58,563 nt of DNA, taken from contig CALWJU010000010.1 in NCBI GenBank assembly GCA_944381105.1, positions 1-58,563 of the forward strand, in the 5' to 3' direction. Each line of letters opens with the position of its first letter. The first letter of the stretch is position 1. Positions 255 through 57,040 of this stretch are shown here, piece by piece. The position numbers and the translations under genes are program-made. The notes beneath the pieces are model-generated. The model saw only the letters and a list, made by a program, of their open reading frames with translations, was not told the origin of the DNA and searched no databases. The stretch comes from an uncultured Clostridia bacterium (GTDB lineage Bacteria; Bacillota; Clostridia; Christensenellales; UBA1242).

Positions 255-333
255 CATGTGATGGCGTGATTTATCACGCAAATTCGTAAGAATTTAATAA
301 AATTTTATGCTAATAAAATTTTATCATCACATG
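255..333 (+). repeat. Four-way-junction palindromic element, subfamily A, copy A1
   Basis: CATGTGATG / GCGTGAT-tt-ATCACGC / AAATTC-gtaa-GAATTT / ATAAAATTTTAT-gcta-ATAAAATTTTAT / CATCACATG. Confidence 0.95.
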
Positions 334-364
334 GATTGTCCACCTTTAAAAGCGCATATAATTT

Positions 365-1393
365 TTACTCTCGCTCATCATTATCGTTTAACTGCAAATA
401 ATCTTTTACACTTTCACAAACATCTTTCATTCCTGATACCGACCTATAAGATAGGTACTCATCTGGTGTAAACATTCTATCCGCAGAATATCTAGCACCT
501 ATATCCTTATAAGTTGTAAAATTAGGGTTGAGGAAAAGTTTTAATAGATTGTTTTTTGCTTTCTCAGTTATCATATATTTAAAGAAGCCTTTTGCCTTAT
601 TCTGTCCCTCATCCTTTCTAGGCATAAAATAATACTCGGCAAGCACACTTTTATTCATATCCTTATAACTTGTACGATACTTTAAAATTGCTTCGAGAAG
701 CATTGAGTTAAGTTTGCATGTCGTAATATATTCTACATTTTTTAAATCATACTTGCCTAAATCTTTTGCGAGTTCTTGGTGCAATGGCGAATTTAGGTCG
801 CCATTTCTTCTTATCTTCTCCGATTTATCAAATATCTCTTGGTATGGCGAAAGTTTGCTAAGCAGGTCAATGGTATTTGCAAGTTTAAAAGCGAAATTGG
901 TCTTAGAAAGGACAATATCATAGTCCTCACCCTCTCTGTCTAAAATTGGATCAATATTGAAAAACACGCTTGCTAGCGAGAGGAATTTTATCTCCTCTAT
1001 GTTTGCCCCTTGTTTAACCACGTCAGTTACAAAGGCATCCAGCGTCAAAAGTTGGTGATTGTCAGGTTTCTTTGAGGTCAAAACATGAGTATAAGCACAC
1101 AGCAAATCAAAGAGTGCGTTTGTGTTATACAAATAATCTTGGCTCTTCACAGCCTTATCGTCTATTTTTTGCACCAACTCCTTTGCCTTATCTTTTAAAT
1201 TTCCGCTTATAATAAATCTCTCATCTGCTATATTTTCTTTTTTAGATTTTGTCCATTCATTTTTGAGAGCCTTTGTCGTAGAACTTGAAATTTTTTTATC
1301 AATTTGAGGATAATATGTAATACCTTTCATTTTCTTTTCCTTTCTAAAATCTATTATATCATATTCAACTATTTTTTCAAGCATTTTTTTCAT
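365..1393 (-). CDS. Hypothetical protein, 342 aa, Lys-rich
   Basis: Long ORF starting 2 bp after the cmk stop; no family recognised. Confidence 0.75.
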   Translation of the reverse strand: MKKMLEKIVEYDIIDFRKEKKMKGITYYPQIDKKISSSTTKALKNEWTKSKKENIADERFIISGNLKDKAKELVQKIDDKAVKSQDYLYNTNALFDLLCAYTHVLTSKKPDNHQLLTLDAFVTDVVKQGANIEEIKFLSLASVFFNIDPILDREGEDYDIVLSKTNFAFKLANTIDLLSKLSPYQEIFDKSEKIRRNGDLNSPLHQELAKDLGKYDLKNVEYITTCKLNSMLLEAILKYRTSYKDMNKSVLAEYYFMPRKDEGQNKAKGFFKYMITEKAKNNLLKLFLNPNFTTYKDIGARYSADRMFTPDEYLSYRSVSGMKDVCESVKDYLQLNDNDERE

Positions 1394-1395
1394 AA

Positions 1396-2085
1396 TTATT
1401 GCTTTATTCTCTTATTTTTACCATATTTATCATATTTTTTATTGATAATGTTAAGACAATATTCAATAGTCTGTTCAAGTGTCATCTGCGAATTGTCAAC
1501 TATAATTGAGTCTTTCGCAGGCTTTAATGGTGCGATCATTCTGTGTTCATCCCTATAATCTCGCTCTTTTAAGTCTTTAAGCACCTCTCCATAAGATATA
1601 TTTTTCTCTTGGCTTTGCTGATATCTTCTCATGGCACGTATTTCAGGTTTTGCAGTTAAAAAAAATTTAAAATCTGCATTTGGCAAGACGTCAGTTGCTA
1701 TGTCCCTGCCCTCAATTATACAATCATACTTCTTTGCAAATTCTTGTTGCAATTCCCTTACCTTCTCTCGTAGCACTGGATTGGGCGAAATCTGTGAGGC
1801 AAGGTTGGATATCTCCTCTTCTCTCAACATGTTTGTATAGTCTATTGCGTTAACACTGACATGTTGATTTTTCCCTACAAAAAACACCTCAATATTCTTA
1901 TCCTTTATAAACTCTTCCACCTCTTGCTCGTCAATCTTGTTATGTTTTTCATCTCGAAAGGAGCAAGCCAGTGCCCTATAAATTGCCCCTGTATCTAATA
2001 CGTGAAACCCTAGTCTGTCAGCAATTCCCCTTGCAAGTGTACTTTTACCGCTTCCGACAGTGCCATCAATTGCAATATTTATCAT
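1396..2085 (-). CDS. cmk: Cytidylate kinase
   Basis: IAIDGTVGSGKST P-loop, DTGAIYR, EGRDI, RDYRD motifs. Confidence 0.95.
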   Translation of the reverse strand: MINIAIDGTVGSGKSTLARGIADRLGFHVLDTGAIYRALACSFRDEKHNKIDEQEVEEFIKDKNIEVFFVGKNQHVSVNAIDYTNMLREEEISNLASQISPNPVLREKVRELQQEFAKKYDCIIEGRDIATDVLPNADFKFFLTAKPEIRAMRRYQQSQEKNISYGEVLKDLKERDYRDEHRMIAPLKPAKDSIIVDNSQMTLEQTIEYCLNIINKKYDKYGKNKRIKQ

Positions 2086-2225
2086 TTATTTCTCCTAAGG
2101 TTTATTATATCAAATTTCTTTGTTTCAAGCAAAACAATTGCAACAATTTAAAAAATTATTTGTATATTTGTTGAGTTTAAGTGGTAATATTTGAAAAAAT
2201 TTTCTTTGTATGCTATAATATTTTT

Positions 2226-3989: not shown

Positions 3990-4177
3990 TAGTTTTTTTA
4001 AAAAAGTCTATTTTATTTAATAGACCTTTTATTTCGATTTTGTTTTTCTTTGTTTTATATTTTTGTTTGATATTAGTATATTTCTTACTTATTTTTTATC
4101 TTTTTTACCTTAATTATTTTATTTGTAAGTTATTTGTTTTACTTTTATCCTACTAAAAAGCGGTTTACTAGAATACT

Positions 4178-4260
4178 TGCATGTGATGAGTGTGTGTAAC
4201 ACACAAATTCGCAAGAATTTAATAAAATTTTATGGCTATAAAATTTTATCATCACATGCA
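4178..4260 (+). repeat. Four-way-junction element A2
   Basis: TGCATGTGATG...GTGTGT-gta-ACACAC, AAATTC-gcaa-GAATTT, ATAAAATTTTAT-ggct-ATAAAATTTTAT...CATCACATGCA. Confidence 0.95.
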
Positions 4261-4277
4261 CACTTTACATATCTCTA

Positions 4278-5381
4278 TTAAGCAACTTTGTATTTTCCAA
4301 TCTTTTTCTTTAATGATTTTGTCAACTTTTTCTTGCGATACTTATATATGCTTTTAGTTAACAATTTGTTTTCATCGCAAGCAAGGGCTATTTTCATCTT
4401 TTTCTCTTTTATAGTATTGTTTATCATTTCCCTTTTTGCTTTATTCTTCAAAGACCTGCTTTTTAGAGCCTTAGTAAAATCAAAGTTTTCAAGATTAATC
4501 TCTTCCTTTTTATTTCGCACTTTTTCAACACGTTTTGGTATTCCGCTTTTTTCGACAGGAAGATTTACCTTGTCCTTTCTCTCTCGAATTTCTATTTGGT
4601 CATAAGGTATTGAAATATTGTTGCGTTTAAGTTCGTTATAGACAAGTTCTAAAATGTCATAATACACATCCCAATAGTCCTCGCTATCACAATAGCATCT
4701 TGCGGTAAACTGTATACTGCTTGCATTTAAGGCACTTAACCTACAAAATGGAGCAGGTTCTAATAGCACCTTACCATTGCTTATCATGCAGTCAATTATA
4801 AGTTTCTTAACCTGTTCAACATCGCTTTCGTAAGCCACATCAAATTTAAAATCGACACGGCGAGTCTTGTTTGTGTCATAGTCGACTACCGAACTGTTCA
4901 CAATGGTAGAATTTGGTATTGTAACCCTCTTGTTATCACCTGTAAGAATGGTTGTAAAAAGGAAATTTATAGCAATGACATTGCCCTCTTTTCCATCAAC
5001 TTCGATATAGTCTCCCTTTTTAAACATCTTATTTGAAACAATAACGATACCATTTGCAGCATTTGCTATGATATTTTCAAGAGCCATACCAATAGCAAGC
5101 ACGATAGCACTTAAAGCAGTTAAAAGTCCTGTGATTTGTATACCAATTATGCTCAATAAAATCAGCACAAACAACACATACAGACATATCTTTATTATTA
5201 CTACAATAAAGCCGACCGTTATCTTTTCCATGCTAGTTTTATTTAACAATCTACGAGTTAAATTAATAAGCAGTTTGATAACAATTAGTCCGACTAACAA
5301 CACTGCAAAGAATATCACTATATTCCAAGCATTTGTCTCAAAAAAGTTTACTATATCATTCCAAATACCTGCCCAATCCAT
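4278..5381 (-). CDS. mscS: MscS-family mechanosensitive channel with a basic C-terminal extension
   Basis: N-terminal TM helices, FKKGDYIEV, IPNS, RRVDFKFDVAY, ISIPY motifs. Confidence 0.9.
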   Translation of the reverse strand: MDWAGIWNDIVNFFETNAWNIVIFFAVLLVGLIVIKLLINLTRRLLNKTSMEKITVGFIVVIIKICLYVLFVLILLSIIGIQITGLLTALSAIVLAIGMALENIIANAANGIVIVSNKMFKKGDYIEVDGKEGNVIAINFLFTTILTGDNKRVTIPNSTIVNSSVVDYDTNKTRRVDFKFDVAYESDVEQVKKLIIDCMISNGKVLLEPAPFCRLSALNASSIQFTARCYCDSEDYWDVYYDILELVYNELKRNNISIPYDQIEIRERKDKVNLPVEKSGIPKRVEKVRNKKEEINLENFDFTKALKSRSLKNKAKREMINNTIKEKKMKIALACDENKLLTKSIYKYRKKKLTKSLKKKIGKYKVA

Positions 5382-9194: not shown

Positions 9195-9271
9195 TGGAGC
9201 TGATGATGGGACTCGAACCCATGACCTGTGCATTACGAGTGCACTGCTCTTGCCAACTGAGCCACATCAGC
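9195..9271 (-). tRNA. tRNA-Thr (anticodon CGT)
   Basis: GCTGATG acceptor stem, anticodon arm GTGCA-CTCGTAA-TGCAC, T-loop GGTTCGAGTCC, encoded CCA end. Confidence 0.97.
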
Positions 9272-11280: not shown

Positions 11281-11416
11281 AATAACTCCTTGTAATAGTA
11301 TAATCAAAATTAAAGCAAATTGCAAATAATAAGTTAAATTTTTTGCAAGTATAAATCAACAATAAAACACCTTTTCAAAGGTGCTTTGATTTGCAAAGGT
11401 GCTTTTATTTACAAAC

Positions 11417-11505
11417 TTGCTGTGTGATGAGTGCTAAAAGCACACGAATTCGTAAGAATTTAATAAAATTTTACAATTGTAAAATTTTATCTCATCACAC
11501 AGCAA
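11417..11505 (+). repeat. Four-way-junction element A3
   Basis: Perfect 15-bp closing stem TTGCTGTGTGATGAG / CTCATCACACAGCAA around three hairpins. Confidence 0.95.
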
Positions 11506-11638
11506 TATTAATACCTTTTATTTTCTTTGTTTCCTCAATTATAGTAATATTAATTGATACCTTTTATTTTCTTCATCTCCTCACGATATCTTTTATCTTC
11601 ATTGTCTTTTAAATTAAAATTGATAACTTCTATCTTCT

Positions 11639-12844
11639 TTAATTCACCTCTTCTATTATTGACGTTGCACATGAGTAAGCGGTGGAAAAAGCGGTTTGGA
11701 GATTATAACCTCCTGTTAGGCAGTCGATATCTAGCACCTCACCTATAAAATATAGTCCTTTAACCTTTTTGCACTCCATAGACCTTGGGTCTATCTCCTT
11801 TAAATCAATTCCGCCTGCTGTAACTATTCCGCTTTCAAGAGGATAGAGTCCGCCATAGTTAAGAGGAAAGTTTTTTAAGGTTTTGAGCATTGTCTCTTTC
11901 TCTTCTCTCGTAATTTGCCCCACCTTTTTAGACTTGTCAATCTTGCAAATGTCCAAAAAGACCTTGGCAAGTGATTTTGGCATAAGACCTTTTGCTATAA
12001 ACGAAATTTCTTTATTGTAAAACTCTTGAAAATCTCTTTTTAGGCGACTGTCAAGTTCCTCCTCGCTAAGTGCTGGCTTTAAATCTATTGTAAGTTTGAC
12101 AGATTGTGCATTTCCTATAAAACTTGATAAAGTTAGTGCAATAGGCCCTGATATTCCATCTTGGCAGAAGAGCATTTCACCAAAAAAGGAGTATTTTTTA
12201 CCTTCAACATCCCCCTTTAAAGTTACATTTCTAAGGCTAAGCCCTTGCAAGTCTTTTATAAAGTTATCTTTTAACCTTATTGGCACAAGTGCCGGTCTTG
12301 GTGGCACCATGCTAACCGAAAAAGCCTTTGCAAATCTATATCCGTCGCCTGTGCTACCTGTAAAACTGTAACTTTTGCCACCTGTTGCAACTATAACCTT
12401 ATCAAAAGCGAAACTGCCTTTTGTCGTTACAACTTCAAAGCCAGGCTTTACCTCTAATACCTTCTCGTTTAGCCTAATGTTTGCCTTATTTAAATTTTTC
12501 ATAAGGGCTTTTGTTATATCGCTTGCCTTGTCAGACTTTGGGAAAACTCGCTCCCCTCTTTCAACTTTTAAGGGACAGCCCAAATTTTCAAAAAATTCCA
12601 TAGCAGATTTGCTATCAAATTTATTTATAGCAGAGAACATAAACTTTTTGCCATTTACAACGTGTTCAAGATAGTTTTCCCTGTCCCCTGCATTTGTTAC
12701 ATTACACCTACCCTTGCCTGTTATGTACAACTTTTTGCCTGTCTTTTCATTTCCGTCGAATATGGTAACAGAAATACCGCTTTGGCAAAGTAATCCCCCT
12801 GCCATAAGTCCACTTGCACCGCCACCTATAATAGCAACTTTCAC
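11639..12844 (-). CDS. HI0933/BaiN-family flavoprotein
   Basis: GGGASG, ITGKGRCNVTN, ATGGKSY, GSTGDGY, TGGYNLQ motifs. Confidence 0.93.
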   Translation of the reverse strand: MKVAIIGGGASGLMAGGLLCQSGISVTIFDGNEKTGKKLYITGKGRCNVTNAGDRENYLEHVVNGKKFMFSAINKFDSKSAMEFFENLGCPLKVERGERVFPKSDKASDITKALMKNLNKANIRLNEKVLEVKPGFEVVTTKGSFAFDKVIVATGGKSYSFTGSTGDGYRFAKAFSVSMVPPRPALVPIRLKDNFIKDLQGLSLRNVTLKGDVEGKKYSFFGEMLFCQDGISGPIALTLSSFIGNAQSVKLTIDLKPALSEEELDSRLKRDFQEFYNKEISFIAKGLMPKSLAKVFLDICKIDKSKKVGQITREEKETMLKTLKNFPLNYGGLYPLESGIVTAGGIDLKEIDPRSMECKKVKGLYFIGEVLDIDCLTGGYNLQTAFSTAYSCATSIIEEVN

Positions 12845-40794: not shown

Positions 40795-41122
40795 AAACTC
40801 CCCCTTTAAAATAATCTTCTCAAAAAGTCAAGACGCCAGGTCTTTATCTTAAAAGAATAAAAATCGTTTAGTCCTAGTTACTATTTTAACAAATCTAGTT
40901 ATTTTCAAAAAGAGAAGAATTGTCGCATTTTCCCTATATTTGTCTTTTTTGGACAGATTTCCAAGCCATGTTTAAACTTTCGTAATTTCTCATATATAAT
41001 CCAAGAATACAAATCTTTTTAAAATTTTGAGAACTATACTCTCATATTTTTTGATTAAGAAAAATATTTATAAAAAAATCAACCTAATAAAAAATGGTTG
41101 ATTTAATTATTATTTTACATTA

Positions 41123-41248
41123 TCGGATGTCGAACTTGCTTGCGAGAGTGAGACTGATAGGTTTTCTTGCTGTATGATGACACAATTTATTGTATCTATG
41201 TGCTACCAAAACTTAAAATTTAACTTGTTTAATTTCTATCATCTCATG
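41123..41248 (+). repeat. Leader plus degenerate subfamily-B element B1
   Basis: TCGGA..AACTTGCTTG..GTGAGACTGATAGGTTTT leader, then ACACAAT-tt-ATTGT..CAAAACTTAAAATTTAACTTGTTTAA shared with B2. Confidence 0.8.
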
Positions 41249-41268
41249 GTTTTATTGTTAGAAACCAA

Positions 41269-41446
41269 GTCAAGCAAGGCGAGGTGGTATTTAAGTGAGA
41301 CTGATAAGGTTTTCTTGCTATGTGATGAGTGTGCAAAGCACACAAATTCGCAAGAATTTAATAAAATTTTATTGCTATAAAATTTTATTATCACATAGCA
41401 AGAAGACCTATCAGTTGCTATCAAATATGGCTTCGCCTTGCTTGAC
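41269..41446 (+). repeat. Four-way-junction element A4 with long outer inverted arms (MITE-like)
   Basis: GTCAAGCAAGGCGA...ACTGATAAGGTTTTCTTGCTATGTGAT [core] ATCACATAGCAAGAAGACCTATCAGT...TCGCCTTGCTTGAC. Confidence 0.9.
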
Positions 41447-41483
41447 GACAACTATCGAAAATATATCAACTTTGTATTATGTT

Positions 41484-42488: not shown

Positions 42489-42747
42489 TCTCCCCTCCTT
42501 GCCTAATTTTTGCATTATTGTAGCACCTATTTTTGACTAATTTCTCTAAAAATTTTATTTACATCATTCTTATTATTTAAATTTATATCTTGCTTTTTTG
42601 AATTTATTTTTGACTTAATTTTTATCTTGTTTGAATTGTAGGTACATTTTGACTTAAACTAACATCTGTTTTTCCATCCTTATTTAAGTCAAAAATTGTC
42701 GTAGAACTAAATTATAGTGCCTTATATAAACTCTGGCTAACATTATT

Positions 42748-42831
42748 CAAACTGTGATGGCACAATTTATTGTGCTTTTGCGTAAGCAAAACTTAAAATT
42801 TAACTTGTTTAAATTTTAAAATCACAGTTTG
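42748..42831 (+). repeat. Four-way-junction element B2
   Basis: CAAACTGTGAT / GCACAAT-tt-ATTGTGC / TTTTGC-gtaa-GCAAAA / TTAAAATTTA..TAAATTTTAA / ATCACAGTTTG. Confidence 0.95.
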
Positions 42832-42859
42832 TAAGAGATAATTTTTAAAACCATCTGAT

Positions 42860-44233
42860 TTAAAACTCAATTGTTACAGACGAATTCACATAACCACTTA
42901 GGAAATTTATCTCTAAACTATCACCCTCTTGCACCTTTAAAAGAATATAGGCAAGGTCATTTCTATTTTCAATAATTGACAACTGCCCATTAAGAGAAAC
43001 GCTGTTAATAACAGTATCTTTTACAAGTAAACTCAAATCACTATACAAATTTTCGTTATCAAGCACATATAGACCACTACCTTTATAAGAAAAGGCTCGT
43101 GAATATGAGGTTGCATTATAATTTTCGCCGTCAAAAGTATAGTACTGATATTGTCCGATTGCATTGAGAGCCTCTTCGAACTCCTCTCTTAGATAACTCG
43201 CATATGCTATCTCATTGCTATCTATTGCCTTTATACTTAACTCATCAAGTGTATAGATAGCAAAGTTTGTTGAGTTTTCATTATTTGAAATTACCCTATC
43301 AAGAACTTGCATAATAGGATAGATAGGCACAACACCATTCATTTGATTTCCGTTTGTACTTGTATAAGAGGTGCTTGCAGTGGCTAGCCCTATCAAGTTG
43401 CCCTCCTTATCAAACACTCCGCCACCCGAATTACCTGGCGAAATGCCTAGGCTGACATCAATAACATCCTCATATACATTGTTTAATGTTGCGACAGGAT
43501 AGTATTCCACCCCCTCTTCGAGTAGATTTGCGTCGGTTAAATATTTAAGTTCTCCACCATCTTCACTATCAAAATAGTAGTAATATGAGTTTGTTGTTGC
43601 TATTGTCAAATCATTATCACTGGCGACATTGCCGAAAGTTACTCTATTAAGGTACTGCAAACTAAGTGGAGTCCCTATTGTGAATATCTCTTCAATGTCG
43701 AGTTTATCCTCCCCCTCAATTGAGCGGTCAGACATTCTCACATAGTTCATTGAAAGTCCTTCGCAATAGAGCAAAGCAACATCAAAATCTTGACTTGCCC
43801 ATAGAACCTCACAAGAGAATTGTCTTTCATCTTCTGTAATTACATTGACAGAAACGTTACTATAAGACTCATCATATATAAAGTCAATAACATGGTAGTT
43901 TGTAGCGATATAGCATCCACCATTTACCTGTCCCTCTTCTCCGCCAGCAACATAGGTATATCCATTTGAGGCAACAACTACTCCACTGCCGAGGCTTGAA
44001 TAACTTACCATTTCCTCGCTATTGACGCCATTTACACGGACAGCAACTGCGACGTTGTCTCTATATAATTGAGATATATCCCATATGGACATATCATCTG
44101 TAATCCTATCATTTATACAATAGGAGTTTGAGTAAGTCCTATTGCTAGGCAAAATAACCCCTGTTACTAACAAAGACACTAGTAACACAAACACAAGAGT
44201 AGAAAATACCGATATATACACTTTTTTATTCAA
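42860..44233 (-). CDS. Membrane-anchored trypsin-like (HtrA/S1C-type) serine protease
   Basis: GSG, TNYHV, DVALL, GNSGGG catalytic triad; N-terminal TM; degenerate PDZ-like tail; TTG start. Confidence 0.85.
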   Translation of the reverse strand: MNKKVYISVFSTLVFVLLVSLLVTGVILPSNRTYSNSYCINDRITDDMSIWDISQLYRDNVAVAVRVNGVNSEEMVSYSSLGSGVVVASNGYTYVAGGEEGQVNGGCYIATNYHVIDFIYDESYSNVSVNVITEDERQFSCEVLWASQDFDVALLYCEGLSMNYVRMSDRSIEGEDKLDIEEIFTIGTPLSLQYLNRVTFGNVASDNDLTIATTNSYYYYFDSEDGGELKYLTDANLLEEGVEYYPVATLNNVYEDVIDVSLGISPGNSGGGVFDKEGNLIGLATASTSYTSTNGNQMNGVVPIYPIMQVLDRVISNNENSTNFAIYTLDELSIKAIDSNEIAYASYLREEFEEALNAIGQYQYYTFDGENYNATSYSRAFSYKGSGLYVLDNENLYSDLSLLVKDTVINSVSLNGQLSIIENRNDLAYILLKVQEGDSLEINFLSGYVNSSVTIEF

Positions 44234-46428: not shown

Positions 46429-46476
46429 ATCTCCTCCATTTAATTTTTATTTATCTAAAAGTTAAAAGTTTTATTT

Positions 46477-46650
46477 TTTTCGACATTTACGTGATATTTT
46501 CGACGTTTGCATTTTTTGAATTTAATTTTCGACGTTTATTTGATTTTTTCGACATTTACAAGAGATTTTCGTCATTTATATGTTTTTTTCGACAATTGCA
46601 AGAGATTTTCGACATTTATATGTTTTTTTCGACAATTGCAAGAGATTATC
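46477..46650. repeat. Array of eight TTTTCG(A/T)C motifs, mostly phased at 20 bp
   Basis: Motif starts at 46477, 46497, 46526, 46546, 46566, 46586, 46606, 46626; a 40-bp higher-order unit occurs twice. Confidence 0.9.
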
Positions 46651-46682
46651 ATCCTTTTAAAAATAAAATCCTATTTTTTTTG

Positions 46683-46764
46683 GCTATGTGATGCGTGCGT
46701 AAAACGCACAAATTCGCAAGAATTTATAAAATTTTACCAAAGTAAAATTTTAGCATCACATAGC
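46683..46764 (+). repeat. Four-way-junction element A5
   Basis: GCTATGTGATGC / GTGCGT-aaa-ACGCAC / AAATTC-gcaa-GAATTT / TAAAATTTTAC-caaa-GTAAAATTTTA / GCATCACATAGC. Confidence 0.95.
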
Positions 46765-46869
46765 GTTTTAATAATCACAACATTTTAAGATAATTTAACG
46801 TTTACGACATTATTTTTAAGTTTTTTTAATGTTTTTTCTGCGTTTTCACCTATTTTCATATAAATTTTT

Positions 46870-50977: not shown

Positions 50978-51056
50978 GGTTAAAAAATAGTCAAAAATAT
51001 TTAAACAGTATAACTCTTAAATAAAGCAGTGAAATATTGCTTAAATTGAACTCAAA

Positions 51057-51358: not shown

Positions 51359-51613
51359 ATTAAACAAATAATAGATAATAAAAAATAATGACACTTTAAT
51401 AGTCATTATTTTTTATTATTATGAAGTTTTAAACCATTTATATGTTTCAAAGAAAAGTATAAAAATATATAATAGTTATTGAAAAACATTAAAGATTAAT
51501 AAGATTAATTATTTTTCAAAACATAATCTACGAGAGGCTCTATATATTTTTCATCCGTCCAATCACAATTTTTATCTTTCGCCTCCATTAAAGCCATACT
51601 ACCATAGTAGGTA

Positions 51614-52144
51614 TCAATCCTCGTCATCGTCGTCATAGTCATAGTCGTCATCGTCTATATCATCATCGTCGTCTATATCGTCGATATCGTCGTCATCATC
51701 ATTATCATCGTCATCGTCATCATCCGAAAAAACTTCATCATCAAAAGAGATATCCGAGTCATCCTCGTCAAATGATAAATCTTGCGTCAAATCATCGTCA
51801 TCGTCAAGCAATGAAGACTTTGTTATATCGTTGACAGAAGCCATTTCTCCTGTCTCGTCGTCTATTGTCATTATGTCGTCCTCATCCTCACGAACCATAT
51901 AGTCCTCCCAATCGGAGTTAAGTTCGCCGTCTTCATTCTGATGTTCTTTTAAACAACTTGAACACATAATCTCATCTGGTTGTATATAGTTGGTCTTGCA
52001 TATAGGGCAAAGTTCGAGGTCAATATCATCGACATAGTCCCGTCTTGCCTCCATTTCAGCCTTACAAACAGGGCAGAATTTATCTTTTTTTTGTATATAA
52101 TTTATCTCACATCTAGGACATCTTATATAAACAGGTTTTTTCAT
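51614..52144 (-). CDS. Double zinc-ribbon protein with a poly-Asp tail
   Basis: CPRC..NYI..CPVC and CPIC..NYI..CSSC, then an Asp-dominated C-terminus; AGGAG RBS. Confidence 0.85.
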   Translation of the reverse strand: MKKPVYIRCPRCEINYIQKKDKFCPVCKAEMEARRDYVDDIDLELCPICKTNYIQPDEIMCSSCLKEHQNEDGELNSDWEDYMVREDEDDIMTIDDETGEMASVNDITKSSLLDDDDDLTQDLSFDEDDSDISFDDEVFSDDDDDDDNDDDDDIDDIDDDDDIDDDDYDYDDDDED

Positions 52145-52239
52145 ATTTCACTCCTTAACATACATTTTTTAATGTCTAACACATTATACATATATATTAT
52201 AAAAAAGTCTAATGTTTTTCTTAATTTTTTATAATTTTT

Positions 52240-52878
52240 TTAAGATTTTTTTGTAACCCTTTCCTCTAAACTTAACTCTGCTTGGCTCTTTCTCAAATAT
52301 AACGGAACAAGTTGATTTTCTCCTATCTCAAAGCCACTATCTTTCATTTTTAAGGATAGCATTAGTAATTCCTCTGCGGTAGGGCTAACCTTCTTTTCAG
52401 CCACATCCTCCTCTTCAAGCCCTATCTTGACTAAACTTAGGCTATCAAGTTCCTTTTTTGTAATAACTTTTGCCTCTTCAATCGCCTTTCCTCTCTTGTC
52501 CCTTTTTTGTATGTAGACAAGACCGCTAAGTGCGTCTACAACAGTTAGAAAGTCGCCCTTTATAGTATGACTACGCAAATAACTATATGATATTAAATCA
52601 AAAGTGGTTATCGGTATTACCTTGCTTTCTTTACCAGCACAGAATCCTTTTACAAGTGCCATTCCTATCCTTATCCCTGTGAATGAGCCTGGTCCTACCA
52701 CCAGCGCATAGCGGTCATTTTTGTCAATACTACTGCCTATATTATCAAGCATTTTATCAATTTTATACAGTATATTTTCTGAATGTTTGCAGTTTGAGTC
52801 AAGCGTGGCAAAATCTCTCTTATTATTTATTTCAACCGCTATCAGTGCTTGTTTGCCAGATGACGATATCGCTATCAT
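52240..52878 (-). CDS. tsaB: tRNA threonylcarbamoyladenosine biosynthesis protein TsaB
   Basis: HSE, GPGSFTGIRIG, PLYLRKSQAE. Confidence 0.92.
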   Translation of the reverse strand: MIAISSSGKQALIAVEINNKRDFATLDSNCKHSENILYKIDKMLDNIGSSIDKNDRYALVVGPGSFTGIRIGMALVKGFCAGKESKVIPITTFDLISYSYLRSHTIKGDFLTVVDALSGLVYIQKRDKRGKAIEEAKVITKKELDSLSLVKIGLEEEDVAEKKVSPTAEELLMLSLKMKDSGFEIGENQLVPLYLRKSQAELSLEERVTKKS

Positions 52879-53060
52879 ATTGCTCCCCTTTATTCTTAAT
52901 AATTTTACTTTAACTTATATACTAAATATTTTTGAATATTCCTTTAAAATTTATTTTAAATATTTTTATTATAAATTGACCATATAAAGATATAAAAAAT
53001 TCTTTCATTAGGTTAAAATTTAATCATACTCAAAAAGAATTTAAATTTCTTATTTACCTT

Positions 53061-53501
53061 TTAAACCTCATTTCCTACAATAATTTTTCTACTGTCGCCG
53101 TCAAGTTTTTCTATTATTATCTCAATATGAGGGCATGTAATAAGACCTGACACATTCTCTGGCCACTCGACAAGCACAACTCCGTCAAGGTGTTTGAGGT
53201 CAAAATATTCATTAAAACCTAGTTCCTCAGCCTCTTCCTTTGAAGAAAGTCTATACATATCAAAGTGATAAATAGGCACTTTCCCGCCCTCATAAACGTT
53301 CATAATGGTAAAAGTTGGGCTTGTTACGAGAGCGTTACTCCCCATGCCTTTGACAAACCCCTTTACAAAGTGCGTTTTGCCTGCACCGAGGTCGCCAACA
53401 AGTGTAAATACCACCCCTTTGCCGACTGTCTTTGCAAGTTTTTCAGCCACTAGCATAGTTTCTTCTTCATTTTTTGTTATAACCGAAAATATCTCTTCCA
53501 T
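53061..53501 (-). CDS. tsaE: tRNA threonylcarbamoyladenosine biosynthesis ATPase TsaE
   Basis: GDLGAGKT, SPTF, HFDMYRL, VEW. Confidence 0.96.
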   Translation of the reverse strand: MEEIFSVITKNEEETMLVAEKLAKTVGKGVVFTLVGDLGAGKTHFVKGFVKGMGSNALVTSPTFTIMNVYEGGKVPIYHFDMYRLSSKEEAEELGFNEYFDLKHLDGVVLVEWPENVSGLITCPHIEIIIEKLDGDSRKIIVGNEV

Positions 53502-53641
53502 ATTTTTCTTATCCTTATACTGAAATTTATAATTTTATTTTCTAAGTTTATTAAGTTCAAATTTTTGTCCTTGTTAAACCTTTTTATGTAAATTAATTAT
53601 ACCGCTTTTTAAGATTATTTTTATATTGAGTTTTTTAAACT

Positions 53642-53724
53642 GGCATGCGATAGCACAATAAATTGTGCTTTTGCGTCAGCAAAACTTAAAATTTAAGCGT
53701 GCTTAAATTTTAATATCGCATGCC
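53642..53724 (+). repeat. Four-way-junction element B3
   Basis: GGCATGCGATA / GCACAAT-aa-ATTGTGC / TTTTGC-gtca-GCAAAA / TTAAAATTTAAGC-gt-GCTTAAATTTTAA / TATCGCATGCC. Confidence 0.95.
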
Positions 53725-53760
53725 GTCCTAATATCACTTATCTCTTACAACAATCTTATA

Positions 53761-54318
53761 TCACTCTTTTTTTATCCTTACAACCACCTTTATCTTTCTG
53801 ACATATTTGTGATAGACAAACAAACCAAGACATGCAAAGAAAATTCCAACTGCCATGCCAACAAGAGTGTCTGACAGATAATGCGCACCTAGCACCATAC
53901 GTGAAAAGGCTATTGCAAAAGGAAAGATTACGCAAAAAAGTCCGCCTAACACCTTAGTGCTATTATATTTCGTTGTAGTTAAGATATGATAAAATAGAAA
54001 TGTCGCAAAGAGTCCTCCGCATAGGCTATGTCCTGACGGCATACTATATCCGCTCTCCCCACCATAGTTTAATATAGTAGGGTCAGCCTCAAACGGTCTT
54101 TCTCGTCCAATTATTACCTTTAAGATTTGATTAATAATTGAAGCAATAGCAAAGGTTACAAGAAAAACATAACTGAGCCGTCTCTGTCTTATAAAGAATA
54201 CCACAAACAGAATGACAAAGCCGAGATAACTGCCAAACAGGGTTATAAATTGAAACAGAGCCACAAAATTTACACTAGCATTAGACTGCAAAAATTTTAT
54301 TATTTCCACTTCATTCAT
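53761..54318 (-). CDS. PAP2-family membrane phosphatase
   Basis: KxxxxRxRP, PSGH, SRMVLGAHYLSD; start 54318 or 54336. Confidence 0.92.
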   Translation of the reverse strand: MNEVEIIKFLQSNASVNFVALFQFITLFGSYLGFVILFVVFFIRQRRLSYVFLVTFAIASIINQILKVIIGRERPFEADPTILNYGGESGYSMPSGHSLCGGLFATFLFYHILTTTKYNSTKVLGGLFCVIFPFAIAFSRMVLGAHYLSDTLVGMAVGIFFACLGLFVYHKYVRKIKVVVRIKKE

Positions 54319-54424
54319 ACCCTTATATTGTAACATATTACGACAAAAAATACAACAGATTTTTAGTTGTCTGTTGTATAGTTTTGTTTTTAGTTAATTT
54401 TTATATTGACTTAAAGATTATGTT

Positions 54425-55006
54425 TTAATTTAACTTCACACTCACACTAAAACCGTCATCAATATCATAAAATGTGGTTGACATATTTTTGTCTTCTTTC
54501 AAGGTCTCTATAAACTGTCTTAAATGTTCCACCATTGAGCGATGTTTATGAGGAATTTTTCCCTCGCTCTTGACAAGTCCTAGCAAGTTCATATTGTCGC
54601 AGAATAGCACACCGTCCTTTTCTAAGAGATTTTTCAGAATTGGATAGTAATTTTTATACTGCCCTTTTGCTCCGTCTAAAAATATAAAATCATAGGTTTG
54701 CCCCTGACTTTCTAGTTCTTTAAGAACTTTAAGTGCGTCATCGACGTAGAGGGTTACTCGCCCTAAAAGGTTAAGCCTCCTAAAATTTTCTATCGCCTTA
54801 TTTGCACGAGTCTCGTCCTTTTCAATGGTTGTAAGGTGCCCGTCGCAACTTTTTAGTAGTAACGAACCTGAATAGCCTATCGCAGTCCCTATCTCCAAAA
54901 TCCTCTTTGCCTTTTTATCTCTACAAAATTCACAGAGTTTCTTTGCTGTCTCCTCTCGTACAATAGGTATATAGTTCTGCCTTGCCTCTTTTTTTATCTC
55001 TTCCAT
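54425..55006 (-). CDS. O-methyltransferase (YrrM/TrmR-like)
   Basis: LEIGTAIGYS, DFIFLDGAKGQY, DN. Confidence 0.88.
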   Translation of the reverse strand: MEEIKKEARQNYIPIVREETAKKLCEFCRDKKAKRILEIGTAIGYSGSLLLKSCDGHLTTIEKDETRANKAIENFRRLNLLGRVTLYVDDALKVLKELESQGQTYDFIFLDGAKGQYKNYYPILKNLLEKDGVLFCDNMNLLGLVKSEGKIPHKHRSMVEHLRQFIETLKEDKNMSTTFYDIDDGFSVSVKLN

Positions 55007-55018
55007 AACAGCCCTTAA

Positions 55019-56671
55019 TTAGTCAAGTGAGACAATTGTCAAAATCATAGGACGACGTTTTGTACGTCTAAATATAAAGTTTGACAGATTTCGACGAAGA
55101 GAGGCTCTTATCACTGATGGTTCAACGCCTCTAAGGTCAGATTCTTTTAGTGAGGCTATAATTGTGGCTTTGGCGTCTTGAACAAAACTTTCTTGCTCGT
55201 CAGCATACACCACTCCTCTTGTGATTATAAATGGATCGCTGGTAACCTCGCCTGCAACATTGTTGATATTTACGCAGACAACACAGATTCCGTCCTCAGC
55301 AAGTTGTTTTCTCTCCCTCAGTACATTGCTATCCATATCGCCTATTCCCATACCATCAACTAGACGCTGACCTGCCTTAACAAAACCTACCTCTTTCATT
55401 GAGTTTGCCCCTAGTTCAACCTGCATGCCTATGCTTGGCAATATTATATTGCGACTATCCATACCTAAGGTCATAGCAAGTTCCTTATGAGTTTTTAGGT
55501 GTCGATATTCGCCATGCACTGGCATGAAAAACTTAGGTTTAACAAGGCTGTGCATGAGTTTGAGTTCCTCTTGACATGCGTGCCCCGAGGTATGAACATC
55601 GGCAAGTTCGTCATAGATTACATCAGCACCAAGTTTATAGAGTGCGTTTATAACGTTGTACACATTCTTCTCGTTTCCAGGTATTGGAGAGGCAGAGAGG
55701 ATAACAAGGTCGTTTGGTCTTATCTTGACGCTCTTAAACTCACCCGCAGCCATACGAGTCAGTGCACTCATAGGCTCGCCCTGACTGCCTGTTGTCATGA
55801 TAAGCACCTCTTTATCGTCAAGTTTATCAACCTTTTCTATATCAACAATATTCTCTCTATTAAAGTGAAGTTCTCCAATCTTCATAGCAACTTCGCTGAC
55901 ATTTATCATGCTTCTGCCTGTAAAGGCTATCTTTCTATTATACCTCTCTGCAATATCCATAATCTGTTGCATTCTATGGATGTTTGAGGCAAACGTAGCA
56001 ACTATTATACGATTGCTAGCGTGATTTTTGATTATCTCGTCAAGAGTTCGGCCTACCGATTTCTCGCTCATAGAATAACCCTTTCGACAAACGTTTGTAC
56101 TTTCGCATAAAAGAAGATTTACCCCCTTTCTCCCTATCTCGCCAAGTCTTGAAATGTCGGTCATAACTCCGTCAATTGGCTCATAGTCAATCTTGAAATC
56201 GCCTGTATGCACAACCGTTCCTACTGGGGTGGTGATTGCAAGAGCGAGAGAGCCTGCTATTGAGTGGCTAACCTTAATAAATTCTATTGAAAACGAGCCG
56301 AGTTTAAGTACATTTCTAGGCTTTACTGATATAGCCTTATATTTAATCTTTGGATGCTCTTTCATCTTGTTTTCGACTAATGCAAGTGTAAGCCTTGTAC
56401 CATAGATTGGTACATTCAACTGTTGAAGCAAAAATGGTACTGCTCCTATATGGTCCTCATGACCATGAGTGAGAAGAAGTGCCTTAACTTTATTTTTGTT
56501 CTCTACAAGGTAGGTCATATCAGGTATAACTATATCTACACCTGGCAAATCGTCGTCTGGAAAAGTTAGTCCAGCATCTATAAGTATGATTTCGTCATTA
56601 TATTCAAGTGCGGTCATATTTTTTCCTATCTCGCCCACACCACCGAGAAAGGTAACTTTTAATTTGTTCAT
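55019..56671 (-). CDS. rnj: Ribonuclease J
   Basis: LGGVGEIGKN, THGHEDHIG, TGSQGEPM, HTSGH, PVHGE. Confidence 0.97.
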   Translation of the reverse strand: MNKLKVTFLGGVGEIGKNMTALEYNDEIILIDAGLTFPDDDLPGVDIVIPDMTYLVENKNKVKALLLTHGHEDHIGAVPFLLQQLNVPIYGTRLTLALVENKMKEHPKIKYKAISVKPRNVLKLGSFSIEFIKVSHSIAGSLALAITTPVGTVVHTGDFKIDYEPIDGVMTDISRLGEIGRKGVNLLLCESTNVCRKGYSMSEKSVGRTLDEIIKNHASNRIIVATFASNIHRMQQIMDIAERYNRKIAFTGRSMINVSEVAMKIGELHFNRENIVDIEKVDKLDDKEVLIMTTGSQGEPMSALTRMAAGEFKSVKIRPNDLVILSASPIPGNEKNVYNVINALYKLGADVIYDELADVHTSGHACQEELKLMHSLVKPKFFMPVHGEYRHLKTHKELAMTLGMDSRNIILPSIGMQVELGANSMKEVGFVKAGQRLVDGMGIGDMDSNVLRERKQLAEDGICVVCVNINNVAGEVTSDPFIITRGVVYADEQESFVQDAKATIIASLKESDLRGVEPSVIRASLRRNLSNFIFRRTKRRPMILTIVSLD

Positions 56672-56721
56672 TGTTTTCTCCTTTTAAATATTTTTTATTG
56701 TTAAAAATACAAAATATATCG

Positions 56722-56852
56722 ACTATGTGATGATTAAATTTTATTAACATAAAATTTTATTAAATTCTTGCGAATTTATGTGCTTTTAGCACACTCATCA
56801 CATAGTTTGTAAAACCATCAGTCTCACCCTTACAAGCAAGTTGGAATTCCGA
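56722..56852 (-). repeat. Four-way-junction element A6 (inverted orientation) plus shared leader
   Basis: Core 56722-56806; reverse complement reads TCGGA..AACTTGCTTG..GTGAGACTGATGGTTTT..ACTATGTGATGA GTGTGC..GCAC AAATTCGCAAGAATTT... Confidence 0.93.
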
Positions 56853-56883
56853 TTATTTTGTATTTTGTAAAACTATTTTAAAC

Positions 56884-57040
56884 CTGCGTGATAGCACAAT
56901 TTTTTGTTCTTGCTCCTCCACATGCACGACAGCGAGAGGTGAATTGTCTAACCTCGGCTATAACGTCCCCTAGCACAAAAAATTGTGCGTTTTGCGAAAG
57001 CAAAACTAAAATTTAAAGAATTTAAATTTTAATCACGCAG
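56884..57040 (+). repeat. Four-way-junction element B4 with an insert in arm 1
   Basis: CTGCGTGAT / GCACAATTTTTTGT [67 nt] ACAAAAAATTGTGC / GTTTTGC-gaaa-GCAAAAC / TAAAATTTAAA-gaa-TTTAAATTTTA / ATCACGCAG. Confidence 0.92.

What the first reader, a model, noticed from the sequence alone, without database searches (positions are those of the whole stretch)
255..57040. Dispersed family of four-way-junction palindromic elements (10 copies in 58 kb) with covarying stems
Seen: six A copies (255, 4178, 11417, 41314, 46683, 56722 inverted) and four B copies (41170 degenerate, 42748, 53642, 56884). All are intergenic and share one architecture: a closing stem around TG(T/C)GAT...ATC(A/G)CA, then three abutting hairpins. 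Structure is conserved where sequence is not. Arm 1 is GCGTGAT/ATCACGC, GTGTGT/ACACAC, GTGTGC/GCACAC, GTGCGT/ACGCAC or GCACAAT/ATTGTGC. Arm 2 is AAATTC/GAATTT (A) or TTTTGC/GCAAAA (B), capped by GTAA, GCAA, GAAA or GTCA. Arm 3 swaps TTTTAT..ATAAAA for TTTTAC..GTAAAA. The outer part of the closing stem differs per copy yet still pairs. Known: REP/BIME and IS200/IS605-derived non-autonomous elements are structure-defined ssDNA substrates of HUH (Y1) nucleases. Inference: this is a structure-selected mobile or functional element that I cannot match to a described family, either a folded ssDNA substrate or a 3'-UTR RNA module. No mobilising gene is present in the window.
Basis: partly seen in the sequence, partly recalled or inferred. 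Interest (0 to 1): 0.92.

Follow-up and report, generated by a model that had tools for sequence, protein, structure and literature searches.

The report
Cloverleaf-shaped mobile repeats in gut Clostridia
A small chicken-gut bacterium carries about sixty copies of a short non-coding repeat that folds into a four-armed cloverleaf, a new family of structured "junk-like" mobile DNA whose way of spreading is still unknown.

Summary
All 10 window copies are recovered by a covariance model built from 9 of them. The same model finds about 60 places in the 1.18-Mb genome and copies in 45 of 150 other species of the genus. The four-way junction is kept by compensatory changes: 93.8% and 95.3% of cells are paired, against 32.6-48.8% when partners are slid.

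New points:
- Many copies carry a second structured module, a 45-56-nt hairpin with two tandem G.A motifs. Module plus cloverleaf form a ~137-nt unit that occurs singly or in tandem.
- Units are bounded by TTTAT(A/T)(A/T)TAT.
- One strand folds better.
- Leaderless copies lie 0-65 nt after stop codons, antisense to the gene. Three window sites lie before the intrinsic terminator.
- Sites filled here are empty in relatives.

No Rfam family, plasmid or phage record matches. The genome holds no Y1 transposase, no TnpB and no IS-like repeat.

Best reading: a new family of non-autonomous, modular, structure-constrained interspersed repeats of the BOX/REP/MITE kind. The mobilising enzyme is unidentified. 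A dif-like 11-6-11 core at unit junctions is an untested lead.

The parts
248..339 (+). A-type cloverleaf copy, 26 nt downstream of the stop of the minus-strand gene 365..1393
   Evidence: R1 86.6 bits; sequence; gene relation
135..158 (-). Terminator-like hairpin plus T run that follows copy 248-339 in the sense of the upstream gene
   Evidence: scan_promoters_terminators
4173..4264 (+). A-type cloverleaf copy, 14 nt downstream of the stop of an MscS-like channel gene (4278..5381, minus)
   Evidence: R1 99.3 bits; Pfam; folds at -30.2 kcal/mol, z -7.0
11414..11507 (+). A-type cloverleaf copy between the stop of gene 11639..12844 (minus) and its terminator. Short local duplications lie on both flanks.
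   Evidence: R1 86.3 bits; terminator 11387->11364; 18-nt tandem repeat 11372-11415; flank duplication read
11364..11387 (-). Terminator-like hairpin that follows copy 11414-11507 in the sense of the upstream gene
41072..41104 (-). Hairpin AAATCAACC..GGTTGATTT plus T run: the likely mreB terminator, lying beyond the composite element
   Evidence: Read by eye. The scan tool did not list it. Relatives have a terminator directly after the mreB stop.
41119..41161 (+). GA-hairpin ('leader') module, short form, in front of the degenerate B copy
   Evidence: Sequence; same module as alignment A4
41164..41254 (+). Degenerate B-type cloverleaf copy
   Evidence: R1 56.9 bits
41269..41309 (+). Partial leader-like module in front of copy 41312
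   Evidence: Sequence, read by eye
41312..41403 (+). A-type cloverleaf copy, the best-scoring copy in the genome. It lies in the mreB 3' region, 81 nt from the stop.
   Evidence: R1 101.1 bits; fold -31.7 kcal/mol, z -6.75
41407..41462 (-). Inverted long-form leader module, which extends the closing stem of copy 41312
   Evidence: Sequence, compared by eye with the long-form leaders
42744..42834 (+). B-type cloverleaf copy, 26 nt downstream of the stop of an HtrA-like protease gene (42860..44233, minus)
   Evidence: R1 78.2 bits; site empty in relatives
46477..46647 (+). Tandem array of degenerate 20/40-nt leader-like units in front of copy 46678
   Evidence: TRF. The likeness to the leader is by eye. 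The ~440 nt around it are absent from G010.
46678..46768 (+). A-type cloverleaf copy, 102 nt downstream of the stop of a TauE-like gene
   Evidence: R1 95.7 bits; also present in contigs of other chicken-gut runs (record 21)
53637..53728 (+). B-type cloverleaf copy, 33 nt downstream of the stop of a PAP2 gene (53761..54336, minus)
   Evidence: R1 86.1 bits; Pfam; also present in contigs of other runs (records 15 and 30)
56718..56811 (-). Inverted A-type copy, 47 nt upstream of the RNase J1 start, in the same sense as that gene
   Evidence: R1 87.6 bits; NCBIfam RNase J1
56813..56857 (-). Leader-like module belonging to the inverted copy
   Evidence: Sequence, compared by eye
56884..57040 (+). 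B-type copy interrupted in arm 1 by a 71-nt G+C-richer insert (56900-56970). The insert is flanked by 8-nt direct repeats TAGCACAA.
   Evidence: Sequence. R1 finds the intact 3' part, 56972-57032. The insert is unique in the genome.

Best explanation
This is a family of short, non-coding, modular interspersed repeats that spreads, or recently spread, as a non-autonomous mobile element within one genus of small-genome gut Clostridia.

The full unit is about 137 nt and has two parts:
- a 45-56-nt hairpin with two tandem G.A motifs. Its first 11 bases, ATTATCGGAAG, are nearly invariant.
- an 80-92-nt cloverleaf: a closing stem plus three abutting hairpins.

Units are bounded on both sides by TTTAT(A/T)(A/T)TAT, occur singly or head to tail, and sit in AT-rich intergenic DNA. 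Older, leaderless cloverleaves survive mainly just after stop codons.

The fold of one particular strand is kept by compensatory change. I therefore infer that propagation passes through a folded single strand, either ssDNA or RNA, recognised by an enzyme supplied in trans. That enzyme is not identified.

Shown here: the family, both folds, covariation, strand asymmetry, the boundary motif, patchy distribution, empty sites and the absence of a linked gene.

Inferred: mobility through a folded single strand, action in trans, and the orientation bias arising from selection or from a strand-specific mechanism.
For: **Family size and spread**
- 61 R1 matches at about 60 places in the genome.
- 45 of 150 other species of the genus carry matches.
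- Outside the genus, 1 weak hit in 146 genomes of the order.

**Cloverleaf structure**
- 93.8% of cells paired and 23 of 33 pairs with double changes on 59 distinct own copies.
- 95.3% paired and 26 of 33 pairs with double changes on 93 distinct copies from other species.
- Slid controls give 32.6-48.8% paired.

**Second module**
- 42 distinct leaders are 89.8% paired.
- Pair 12-51 is UA in 22 and CG in 14. Pair 13-50 is CG in 33 and UA in 7. The apical pairs covary as well.

**Strand asymmetry**
- The model strand is the more stable RNA in 99 of 132 cloverleaves and 41 of 42 leaders.
- A full unit folds at -47.6 against -37.3 kcal/mol.
- R1 hits the opposite strand of only one copy.

**Mobility**
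- The mreB-minD and htrA-mreB sites are empty in 19 of 19 relatives.
- No R1 match lies on the two G010 contigs syntenic with the window, although G010 has 17-18 matches elsewhere.
- The C41 site is empty in G121, G113 and G010. G113 keeps a single ATAAAT core there.
- Copies are 84-94% identical across species whose mreB DNA is 65-78% identical.
- Many contigs end inside arrays.

**Boundaries:** TTTAT(A/T)(A/T)TAT lies on both sides of units in the own genome and in other species.

**No linked gene**
- No Y1_Tnp or TnpB match in G000.
- No long high-identity repeat in G000.
- No match in plasmid or phage records.
Against: - No clean filled/empty pair at base resolution was obtained. The closest species are too diverged in intergenic DNA.
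- Strains about 99% identical in three other chicken-gut runs hold the same copies at 46678 and 53637. No current insertion polymorphism was seen.
- No mobilising enzyme was found.
- The boundary motif is the same everywhere. It cannot be told whether it is a target duplication, a preferred target or part of the element.
- Copies are related by descent, so the counts of compensatory cells overstate the number of independent events.
- Both cloverleaf alignments were fitted to the model.
- ORFs for the orientation counts were called crudely.
- Gene direction and replication direction are confounded: 45 of 60 copies lie on the C-rich strand.
Confidence: 0.62

Rival explanations
1. It is a host-serving RNA module. 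Either the cloverleaf acts in the 3' UTR of the upstream mRNA (stabiliser, processing site or terminator), or leader plus cloverleaf is a multi-copy small RNA.
For: - Leaderless copies lie 0-65 nt after stop codons: 19-20 antisense against 1 sense in the own genome and 16 against 5 in other species.
- Three window sites lie between the stop codon and a terminator-like hairpin.
- The arm-2 loops on the better-folding strand are GNRA-like: GCAA, GTAA, GAAA.
- The leader has two tandem G.A motifs and G.U pairs that work on one strand only.
- Contigs of one metatranscriptome run contain element pieces.
Against: - The better-folding strand is antisense to the neighbouring gene. The mRNA would carry the weaker complement.
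- Sites are not orthologous between species.
- Most species of the genus lack the element: 105 of 150 have no match.
- No convincing promoter lies in front of units (read by eye).
- The RNA evidence consists of contigs without strand, and DNA carry-over is possible.
- Arrays sit in all kinds of intergenic contexts.
Confidence: 0.15
2. The repeats are ssDNA substrates of an HUH (Y1) transposase acting in trans, as REP/RAYT or IS200/IS605-derived elements are.
For: - The fold is selected and strand-specific.
- Units start after and end with TTTAT-like pentamers. This resembles insertion 3' of a fixed short target.
- Y1_Tnp genes occur in 17 of 151 genomes of the genus. 12 of those 17 are carriers, against 33 of 133 genomes without one (Fisher p = 3e-4).
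- One unit lies about 40 nt beyond an IS200-like right end in G082.
Against: - No Y1_Tnp was found in G000, which is 97.6% complete and has about 60 copies. 33 of 45 carriers also lack one.
- The IS200-like ends are G+C-rich hairpins unlike either module.
- 5 of 6 IS200-like loci have no R1 match within the stored flanks.
- The better-folding strand lies mostly on the C-rich strand. By my own reasoning, not by any search, that is not the lagging-strand template that IS608-type elements use.
Confidence: 0.13
3. Units are tiny integrative elements moved by a tyrosine recombinase, Xer-like. A circular or tandem junction forms an 11-6-11 core site that recombines with AT-rich pseudo-sites.
For: - The junction of two units, read on the other strand, is ACTTCCGATAA-TATAAA-CTATGTGATGA. 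It matches 20 of 28 positions of the B. subtilis dif printed in PMC3025954.
- Element leader starts give the two best dif-like 28-mers of the whole genome, with 6 and 7 mismatches. They also give 5 of the 13 hits with 8 mismatches or fewer.
- The left arm is the near-invariant start of the leader.
- Units are flanked by direct repeats of the central region and form head-to-tail arrays, as site-specific integration would give.
- A XerS-like recombinase is conserved in the genus. It scores 182 bits against NF003462 (cut-off 267), and its DNA was found in 143 of 151 genomes.
- That gene sits at the GC-skew switch of contig C41, with a two-unit array 210-440 nt upstream.
Against: - I noticed the resemblance after the fact.
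- The right arm matches only 6 of 11 positions, and its outer part varies between subfamilies while staying paired.
- No junction-like 28-mer lies near the XerS-like gene in 11 relatives; the best has 10 mismatches.
- A degenerate dif pattern gave no more hits than its control.
- Copies are dispersed over at least 40 loci, not gathered at one dif site.
- Leaderless copies lack the left arm.
Confidence: 0.12
4. It is an ordinary DDE-type MITE. The closing stem is a terminal inverted repeat, the 10-nt flank is a target duplication, and the internal hairpins are a by-product.
For: - The elements are AT-rich, 80-140 nt long, with terminal inverted repeats and direct repeats at both ends. They are intergenic and vary in copy number.
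- This is how MITEs are described in the background section of PMC3049150 (passages read).
Against: - Three internal hairpins and the leader helix keep pairing through changes on both sides, both between and within subfamilies. TIR binding alone does not explain this.
- The flanking repeat has the same sequence at all sites.
- No IS with matching ends and no multi-copy long repeat occurs in G000.
- The two strands are not equivalent.
Confidence: 0.12

Closest known systems
BOX elements of Streptococcus pneumoniae (boxA-boxB-boxC) and the related RUP and SPRITE repeats
   Same: - They are small non-coding interspersed repeats of a Firmicute, built from modules. One module can be absent or present in several copies.
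- They are predicted to fold tightly, lie in intergenic DNA, and have an orientation that follows the coding bias.
- They are present at lower frequency in close relatives, and their mobilising enzyme is uncertain.

Source: PMC3049150, passages read.
   Different: - No sequence relation was tested, because I had no BOX sequences to hand.
- Here the main module is a four-way junction, not a long hairpin.
- The second module carries tandem G.A motifs.
- Units share one 10-nt boundary motif.
- The host is an uncultured gut Clostridia genus with genomes of 0.6-1.5 Mb.
REP/BIME repeats with RAYT transposases
   Same: They are structure-defined extragenic palindromes, often at gene ends and arranged in composite mosaics. 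They are thought to move as folded single strands. Source: abstracts of PMC2817692 and PMC3733652, seen in the listings.
   Different: - REPs are 20-40 nt single hairpins with a tagged end (abstract and title of PMC3733652).
- The elements here are 80-137 nt, AT-rich and multi-branched.
- No Y1/RAYT-like gene is in the genome.
IS200/IS605-derived non-autonomous elements
   Same: They are short units with structured ends, and insertion next to a fixed short sequence would give the observed TTTAT boundaries. Y1 genes are enriched among carrier genomes.
   Different: The IS200-like copies of relatives have unrelated end hairpins. There is no TnpA or TnpB in G000.
Xer/dif recombination sites and elements that exploit them
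   Same: The unit junction has an 11-6-11 layout and matches 20 of 28 positions of B. subtilis dif. Direct repeats of the core flank the units, and the units form tandem arrays.
   Different: - Copies are dispersed, not gathered at one terminus site.
- The host's own dif is unknown and does not resemble the junction near its XerS-like gene in relatives.

Membership tests
Any Rfam 15 RNA family | Match to a curated covariance model at its gathering score | tested here: not met
   Whole window: only a tRNA at 9198-9271. Two-unit stretch at E<=10: the best hit is asd/MarS at 25.1 bits against a gathering score of 84. The rest are snoRNA noise.
REP/RAYT | 20-40 nt palindrome with a conserved GTAG or CGTC head | tested here: not met
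   Copies are 80-92 nt four-way junctions with 19-37% G+C and have no such head. The feature is taken from the title and abstract of PMC3733652.
REP/RAYT | A RAYT (Y1 transposase-like) gene in the same genome | tested here: not met
   PF01797 gives no match in G000 at 97.6% completeness. The control search hits 6 of 14 known genomes.
IS200/IS605-derived element | Ends resemble the left and right end hairpins of a resident IS200/IS605 element | tested here: not met
   The ends of six IS200-like copies of relatives are G+C-rich hairpins unlike either module. R1 hits none of them, apart from one neighbouring unit in G082.
IS200/IS605-derived element | Insertion 3' of a fixed tetra- or pentanucleotide, without target duplication | tested here: inconclusive
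   Units begin after and end with TTTAT or CTAT. But ATTAT/AATAT is also repeated after the last unit, so a duplication or a shared core is equally possible.
Classical MITE (DDE transposase) | Terminal inverted repeats | tested here: met
   The closing stem of 9-16 bp forms the two ends of the cloverleaf.
Classical MITE (DDE transposase) | Target-site duplication that differs from site to site | tested here: not met
   The flanking 10-mer is the same, TTTAT(A/T)(A/T)TAT, at nearly all unit boundaries in several species.
Classical MITE (DDE transposase) | A parent IS with the same terminal repeats in the host | tested here: not met
   The self-comparison of G000 shows no multi-copy, high-identity repeat of 250 nt or more that looks like an IS. 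DDE families were not searched by profile.
BOX-type modular repeats | Built from separable modules, one of which varies in copy number | tested here: met
   The leader is present, absent, inverted or tandemly amplified independently of the cloverleaf. The feature is taken from PMC3049150.
BOX-type modular repeats | Sequence similarity to boxA, boxB or boxC | not tested
Integron attC site | RYYYAAC ... GTTRRRY core pair, cassette arrays and an integron integrase | tested here: not met
   No such cores occur at the ends of the copies (read). Copies are dispersed beside housekeeping genes. The motif definition is recalled from memory. An integron integrase was not searched for specifically.
dif-like site or Xer-exploiting element | 28-nt core of two 11-nt arms around a 6-nt centre, similar to the host dif | tested here: inconclusive
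   The junction matches 20 of 28 positions of B. subtilis dif. But no junction-like site lies near the XerS-like gene in 11 relatives, and the host dif was not identified.
dif-like site or Xer-exploiting element | Integration at the single chromosomal dif site | tested here: not met
   Copies lie at about 60 places on 24 contigs. Only one array lies at the skew switch beside the XerS-like gene.
Intrinsic terminator or SPRITE-like repeat | A single G+C-rich stem followed by a U tract, in the sense of the upstream gene | tested here: not met
   The fold is a four-way junction. The T-rich tail (TTTAT) follows the closing stem only on the strand antisense to the upstream gene. Separate terminator hairpins follow three window sites.

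The most novel reading that the evidence does not exclude
The ~137-nt unit is a gene-less integrative element. Its two structured modules present the two arms of a dif-like 11-6-11 core to a tyrosine recombinase, perhaps the genus-wide XerS-like enzyme, as a folded single strand or a mini-circle. A non-coding DNA of about 130 nt would then hitch-hike on the chromosome-dimer resolution machinery and scatter to AT-rich pseudo-sites. That would be the smallest Xer-exploiting mobile element known, and the first one dispersed around a genome.
Probability: 0.12. Interest if true: 0.85.

Novelty: new variant of a known kind. Interest (0 to 1): 0.55.

Why it matters
Small structured interspersed repeats such as REP, BOX, ERIC and Correia elements shape transcription, mRNA decay and genome rearrangement. 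For most of them the means of movement is still argued.

This family offers an unusually clear case:
- a branched fold and a second hairpin, both kept by compensatory change;
- a preferred strand;
- a sharp common boundary;
- a host genus with very small genomes, few mobile genes and many sequenced species, of which about a third carry it.

That makes the questions of who moves it and through which intermediate tractable by comparative genomics and by simple binding or recombination assays.

It also matters in practice. The repeats break short-read assemblies of these gut genomes, since many contigs end inside arrays. They also sit in the 3' regions of housekeeping genes.

Tried and rejected
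1. **Rfam.** The gathering scan of the window and an E<=10 scan of two units gave no family.

2. **Viral contigs.** The A pattern gave one chance hit that R1 does not confirm. The B pattern gave none.

3. **Hits outside Clostridia.** The genome contigs pattern scan also hit Campylobacter, Latilactobacillus, Nitrospirae, Flavobacterium and Bacteroidetes records. None is confirmed by R1, so I take them as chance.

4. **Wobble test for the folded strand.** G.T against A.C counts are 75:36 and 42:24. Most of the excess comes from one loop-closing pair, and arm 1 is partly out of register, so I do not use it.

5. **Boundary motif downstream of stop codons.** The count is contaminated by the elements' own junctions and was dropped.

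6. **Sequencing runs.** Contigs of one RNA run and three DNA runs were laid on 40900-57200.
   - No contig skips an element.
   - The listed joints are repeat-mediated or have short sides.
   - The RNA run gives no strand and no ends.
   - Stretches without RNA cover are no finding.

7. **Base-level insertion boundaries.** Alignment with G010, G121 and G113 did not resolve them, because intergenic DNA is too diverged.

8. **Other candidate partners.**
   - Reverse transcriptase: one RVT_1 gene in G000, beside an integrase on C5. One also occurs in a non-carrier, and no element is near.
   - Tyrosine recombinases: 5 in G000, 10 and 6 in two carriers, 1 and 4 in two non-carriers. One on C28 sits among genes I take, by position only, for a restriction-modification locus. 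None is adjacent to arrays except the conserved XerS-like gene.

9. **Host dif.** A degenerate dif pattern with 2 mismatches gave counts like its reversed control. A palindromic motif seen upstream of the XerS-like gene in some relatives is not unique in G000.

10. **Closed or unused tools.** ISfinder could not be consulted. No search was made of supplements, which are closed. Supplements of PMC3049150 or PMC3025954 could hold repeat or dif tables that I did not see.

11. **Literature.** Searches found no description of this family. They were word searches for the terms of those calls only, not proof that nothing is in print.

Full report
**What is there**

I aligned nine of them and wrote the four-way junction as a structure string. 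From this I built covariance model R1.

R1 finds 61 matches in the window's own genome. That genome is 1.18 Mb in 43 contigs, 33% G+C and 97.6% complete. One match is the opposite strand of a copy and one is the intact half of the interrupted copy, so there are about 60 places. The window holds 10 of them in 58.6 kb, about three times the genome average.

Two subfamilies exist:
- A has arm 2 AAATTC-GNAA-GAATTT.
- B has arm 2 TTTTGC-G..A-GCAAAA.

Arms 1 and 3 differ between them as well.

**Is the fold real**

| Test | Own genome | Other species |
|---|---|---|
| Distinct copies | 59 | 93 |
| Cells that are standard pairs | 93.8% | 95.3% |
| Shuffled mean | 78.3% | 85.5% |
| Slid controls | 35.5-46.2% | 32.6-48.8% |
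| Pairs with changes on both sides | 23 of 33 | 26 of 33 |

- In the own genome every pair of arms 1 and 2 shows such changes.
- Single copies fold into exactly this shape, with z-scores of -5.7 to -7.3 as RNA and -7.3 to -8.2 as DNA.
- Caveats: the alignments are fitted to the model, the copies are kin, and much of the arm-2 and arm-3 signal is the A/B split. Arm 1 and the closing stem vary within subfamilies.

**A second module and a unit**

Many copies are preceded by a 45-56-nt module that starts with the near-invariant ATTATCGGAAG and ends with CTGATGG.
- Forty-two distinct versions from several species align as one hairpin.
- Its helices covary. Pair 12-51 is UA in 22 and CG in 14. Pair 13-50 is CG in 33 and UA in 7. 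Pair 18-47 is AU in 34 and GC in 3. The apical pairs change on both sides too.
- The helices are interrupted by two conserved tandem G.A juxtapositions. The apical part comes in at least four length forms.
- Module plus cloverleaf make a unit of about 137 nt.
- Units occur singly or head to tail (B-A, A-B, B-B). Many contigs end inside such arrays.
- The module can also stand inverted after a cloverleaf, as at 41407-41462. It can be tandemly amplified in degenerate form, as at 46477-46647.

**Boundaries**

In the own genome and in other species the unit is preceded and followed by TTTAT(A/T)(A/T)TAT. The same ten bases link units in arrays. At the C41 site a relative without the array keeps one ATAAAT core where G000 has two cores around the array. 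I could not decide whether this is a target duplication, a preferred target or a recombination core.

**Which strand**

- The cloverleaf alone folds almost equally well on both strands.
- The full unit does not: -47.6 against -37.3 kcal/mol as RNA.
- Over all distinct copies the model strand is the more stable RNA in 99 of 132 cloverleaves, by 1.8 kcal/mol on average. It is the more stable in 41 of 42 leaders, by 4.9 kcal/mol on average.
- The G.A motifs, the G.U pairs of the basal helix and the G..A loops of arm 2 exist only on that strand.

**Where the copies sit**

The neighbouring genes are ordinary: MscS-like channel, MerR, MreB, MinD-like, HtrA-like, TsaE, PAP2, TauE, RNase J1 and ClpB.

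With crude ORF calls, copies whose 3' end lies within 65 nt of a stop codon are antisense to that gene:
- 19-20 cases against 1 in the own genome;
- 16 against 5 in other species.

Forty-five of 60 copies lie on the C-rich strand, so gene direction and replication direction cannot be separated.

At 248-339 and 11414-11507 a terminator-like hairpin follows the element in the sense of the gene. The same holds at the mreB composite by eye. In relatives the mreB stop is followed directly by a terminator. These elements therefore lie inside 3' untranslated regions, but with the weaker-folding strand in the mRNA.

Leader-bearing units sit in all kinds of intergenic contexts.

**Mobility**

- The host belongs to a large genus of uncultured chicken-gut Clostridia with genomes of 0.6-1.5 Mb. 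Record titles include Candidatus Caccovivens faecavium, and the runs are chicken gut.
It finds one weak hit in 146 genomes of other genera of the order.
- Copies are 84-94% identical between species whose mreB DNA is 65-78% identical.
- The sites after the HtrA-like gene and after mreB are empty in 19 of 19 relatives examined.
- The closest species searched, G010, is syntenic with the window on two contigs. It has no R1 match on either, although it has 17-18 elsewhere.
- One array with its flanks is 93% identical between G000 and G010. It was either inherited or transferred with its surroundings.
- Against current activity: contigs of about 99%-identical strains in three other runs keep the copies at 46678 and 53637.

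**Who moves it**

Nothing in the window does, and nothing I could find in the genome does.
- There is no Y1_Tnp and no TnpB zinc ribbon.
- There is no IS-like long repeat.
- There is one RT beside an integrase, far from any copy.
- There are five tyrosine recombinases, of which only the conserved XerS-like gene has an array near it.
- In the genus, Y1_Tnp genes occur in 17 of 151 genomes. Twelve of the 17 are carriers, against 33 of 133 without (p = 3e-4). This assumes that searches drew the same 150 genomes, as the handles suggest.
- However, the IS200-like ends are unrelated hairpins, and only one of six loci has a unit nearby. Carriers also tend to have the larger genomes.

**A lead**

Read on the other strand, the junction between two units is ACTTCCGATAA-TATAAA-CTATGTGATGA. 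That is an 11-6-11 layout with imperfectly inverted arms.
- It matches 20 of 28 positions of the B. subtilis dif printed in PMC3025954 (section 'Software and sequences', passage read).
- Leader starts with their flanks are the two best dif-like 28-mers of the whole genome.
- The XerS-like gene lies at the plus-to-minus GC-skew switch of contig C41, where genes converge. A two-unit array lies 210-440 nt upstream. In streptococci difSL lies directly upstream of xerS (PMC1914069, passages read).

Against this lead:
- I saw the likeness after the fact.
- The right arm is weak.
- Eleven relatives have nothing like the junction near that gene.
- The host dif could not be found.
- The copies are dispersed.

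I keep it as the boldest reading the data allow, at about one in eight.

**Comparison with what is known**

- No Rfam family matches. No PLSDB plasmid or INPHARED phage record matches.
- The closest described kind is the small interspersed repeats of Firmicutes, above all pneumococcal BOX elements. These are modular, with a module of variable copy number. They are tightly folded and intergenic, with an orientation that follows the coding bias and an uncertain mobiliser (PMC3049150, passages read).
- REP/BIME and IS200/IS605-derived elements share the idea of a folded single strand, but their defining features were tested and not met.
- The differences here are the branched four-way fold, the G.A hairpin, the single common boundary and the host.
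- I therefore file it as a new variant of a known kind, not as a member of any named family.

**Limits**

- No strand-resolved RNA data were available.
- The genome is a fragmented metagenome bin.
- Gene calls for the orientation counts are my own crude ORFs.
- The literature searches were word searches only.

Noticed in passing
window 56900-56970: A 71-nt G+C-richer insert sits inside arm 1 of the B copy. It is flanked by 8-nt direct repeats TAGCACAA (56892-56899 and 56971-56978) and is unique in this genome. Its origin is unknown.
   Followed up: partly
window 11372-11415 and 11508-11680: Both flanks of copy 11414-11507 carry local duplications. On one side is an 18-nt tandem repeat of half the terminator. 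On the other is a ~37-nt second copy of the 3' end of the upstream gene. This may be a scar of insertion or repair.
   Followed up: partly
window 46429-46869: The whole ~440-nt intergenic stretch, with leader-like 20/40-nt tandem repeats plus a cloverleaf, is replaced by about 8 nt between the matching genes in the closest species G010.
   Followed up: partly
G000 contig C41, 16-24 kb (L214): GC skew switches from +0.14..+0.30 to about -0.15 and genes converge, which is terminus-like. A 344-aa XerS-like tyrosine recombinase gene (C41:19058-20092), conserved in 143 of 151 genomes, sits exactly there. The genus probably uses a single-recombinase Xer system.
   Followed up: partly
L021 (G000:C21:2096-5187) against L186 (G010:C51): This 3.1-kb stretch is 93% identical between the two species, while mreB and its neighbours are 70-83% identical. 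This suggests possible recent exchange between species or uneven divergence.
   Followed up: no
G000 contig C5, 39851-42691 (L231, L229): A reverse transcriptase gene (RVT_1, about 338 aa) lies beside a 452-aa tyrosine recombinase at a contig end. A similar pair occurs in the non-carrier G002. The type (retron, group II intron, other) was not determined.
   Followed up: no
G000 contig C28 (L244): A small 4.1-kb contig of 27.8% G+C carries a 266-aa tyrosine recombinase between oppositely oriented ORFs. By position it looks like a phase-variable type I restriction-modification locus. This was not checked by profile.
   Followed up: no
L208-L213 (relatives G054, G078, G066, G082, G074, G115): IS200-like elements with classic G+C-rich end hairpins occur in 17 of 151 genomes of the genus. 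Several of the Y1 matches contain in-frame stop codons.
   Followed up: partly
L049 (G009:C47), upstream of the unit: An ORF ending directly before a unit reads like the C-terminal catalytic region of a tyrosine recombinase. A possible tRNA gene lies downstream, so the unit sits at the edge of an integrated element. This was read by eye only.
   Followed up: no
window 29901-30020: A 32-nt tandem repeat, 3.8 copies, 93% matches, unrelated to the cloverleaf family.
   Followed up: no
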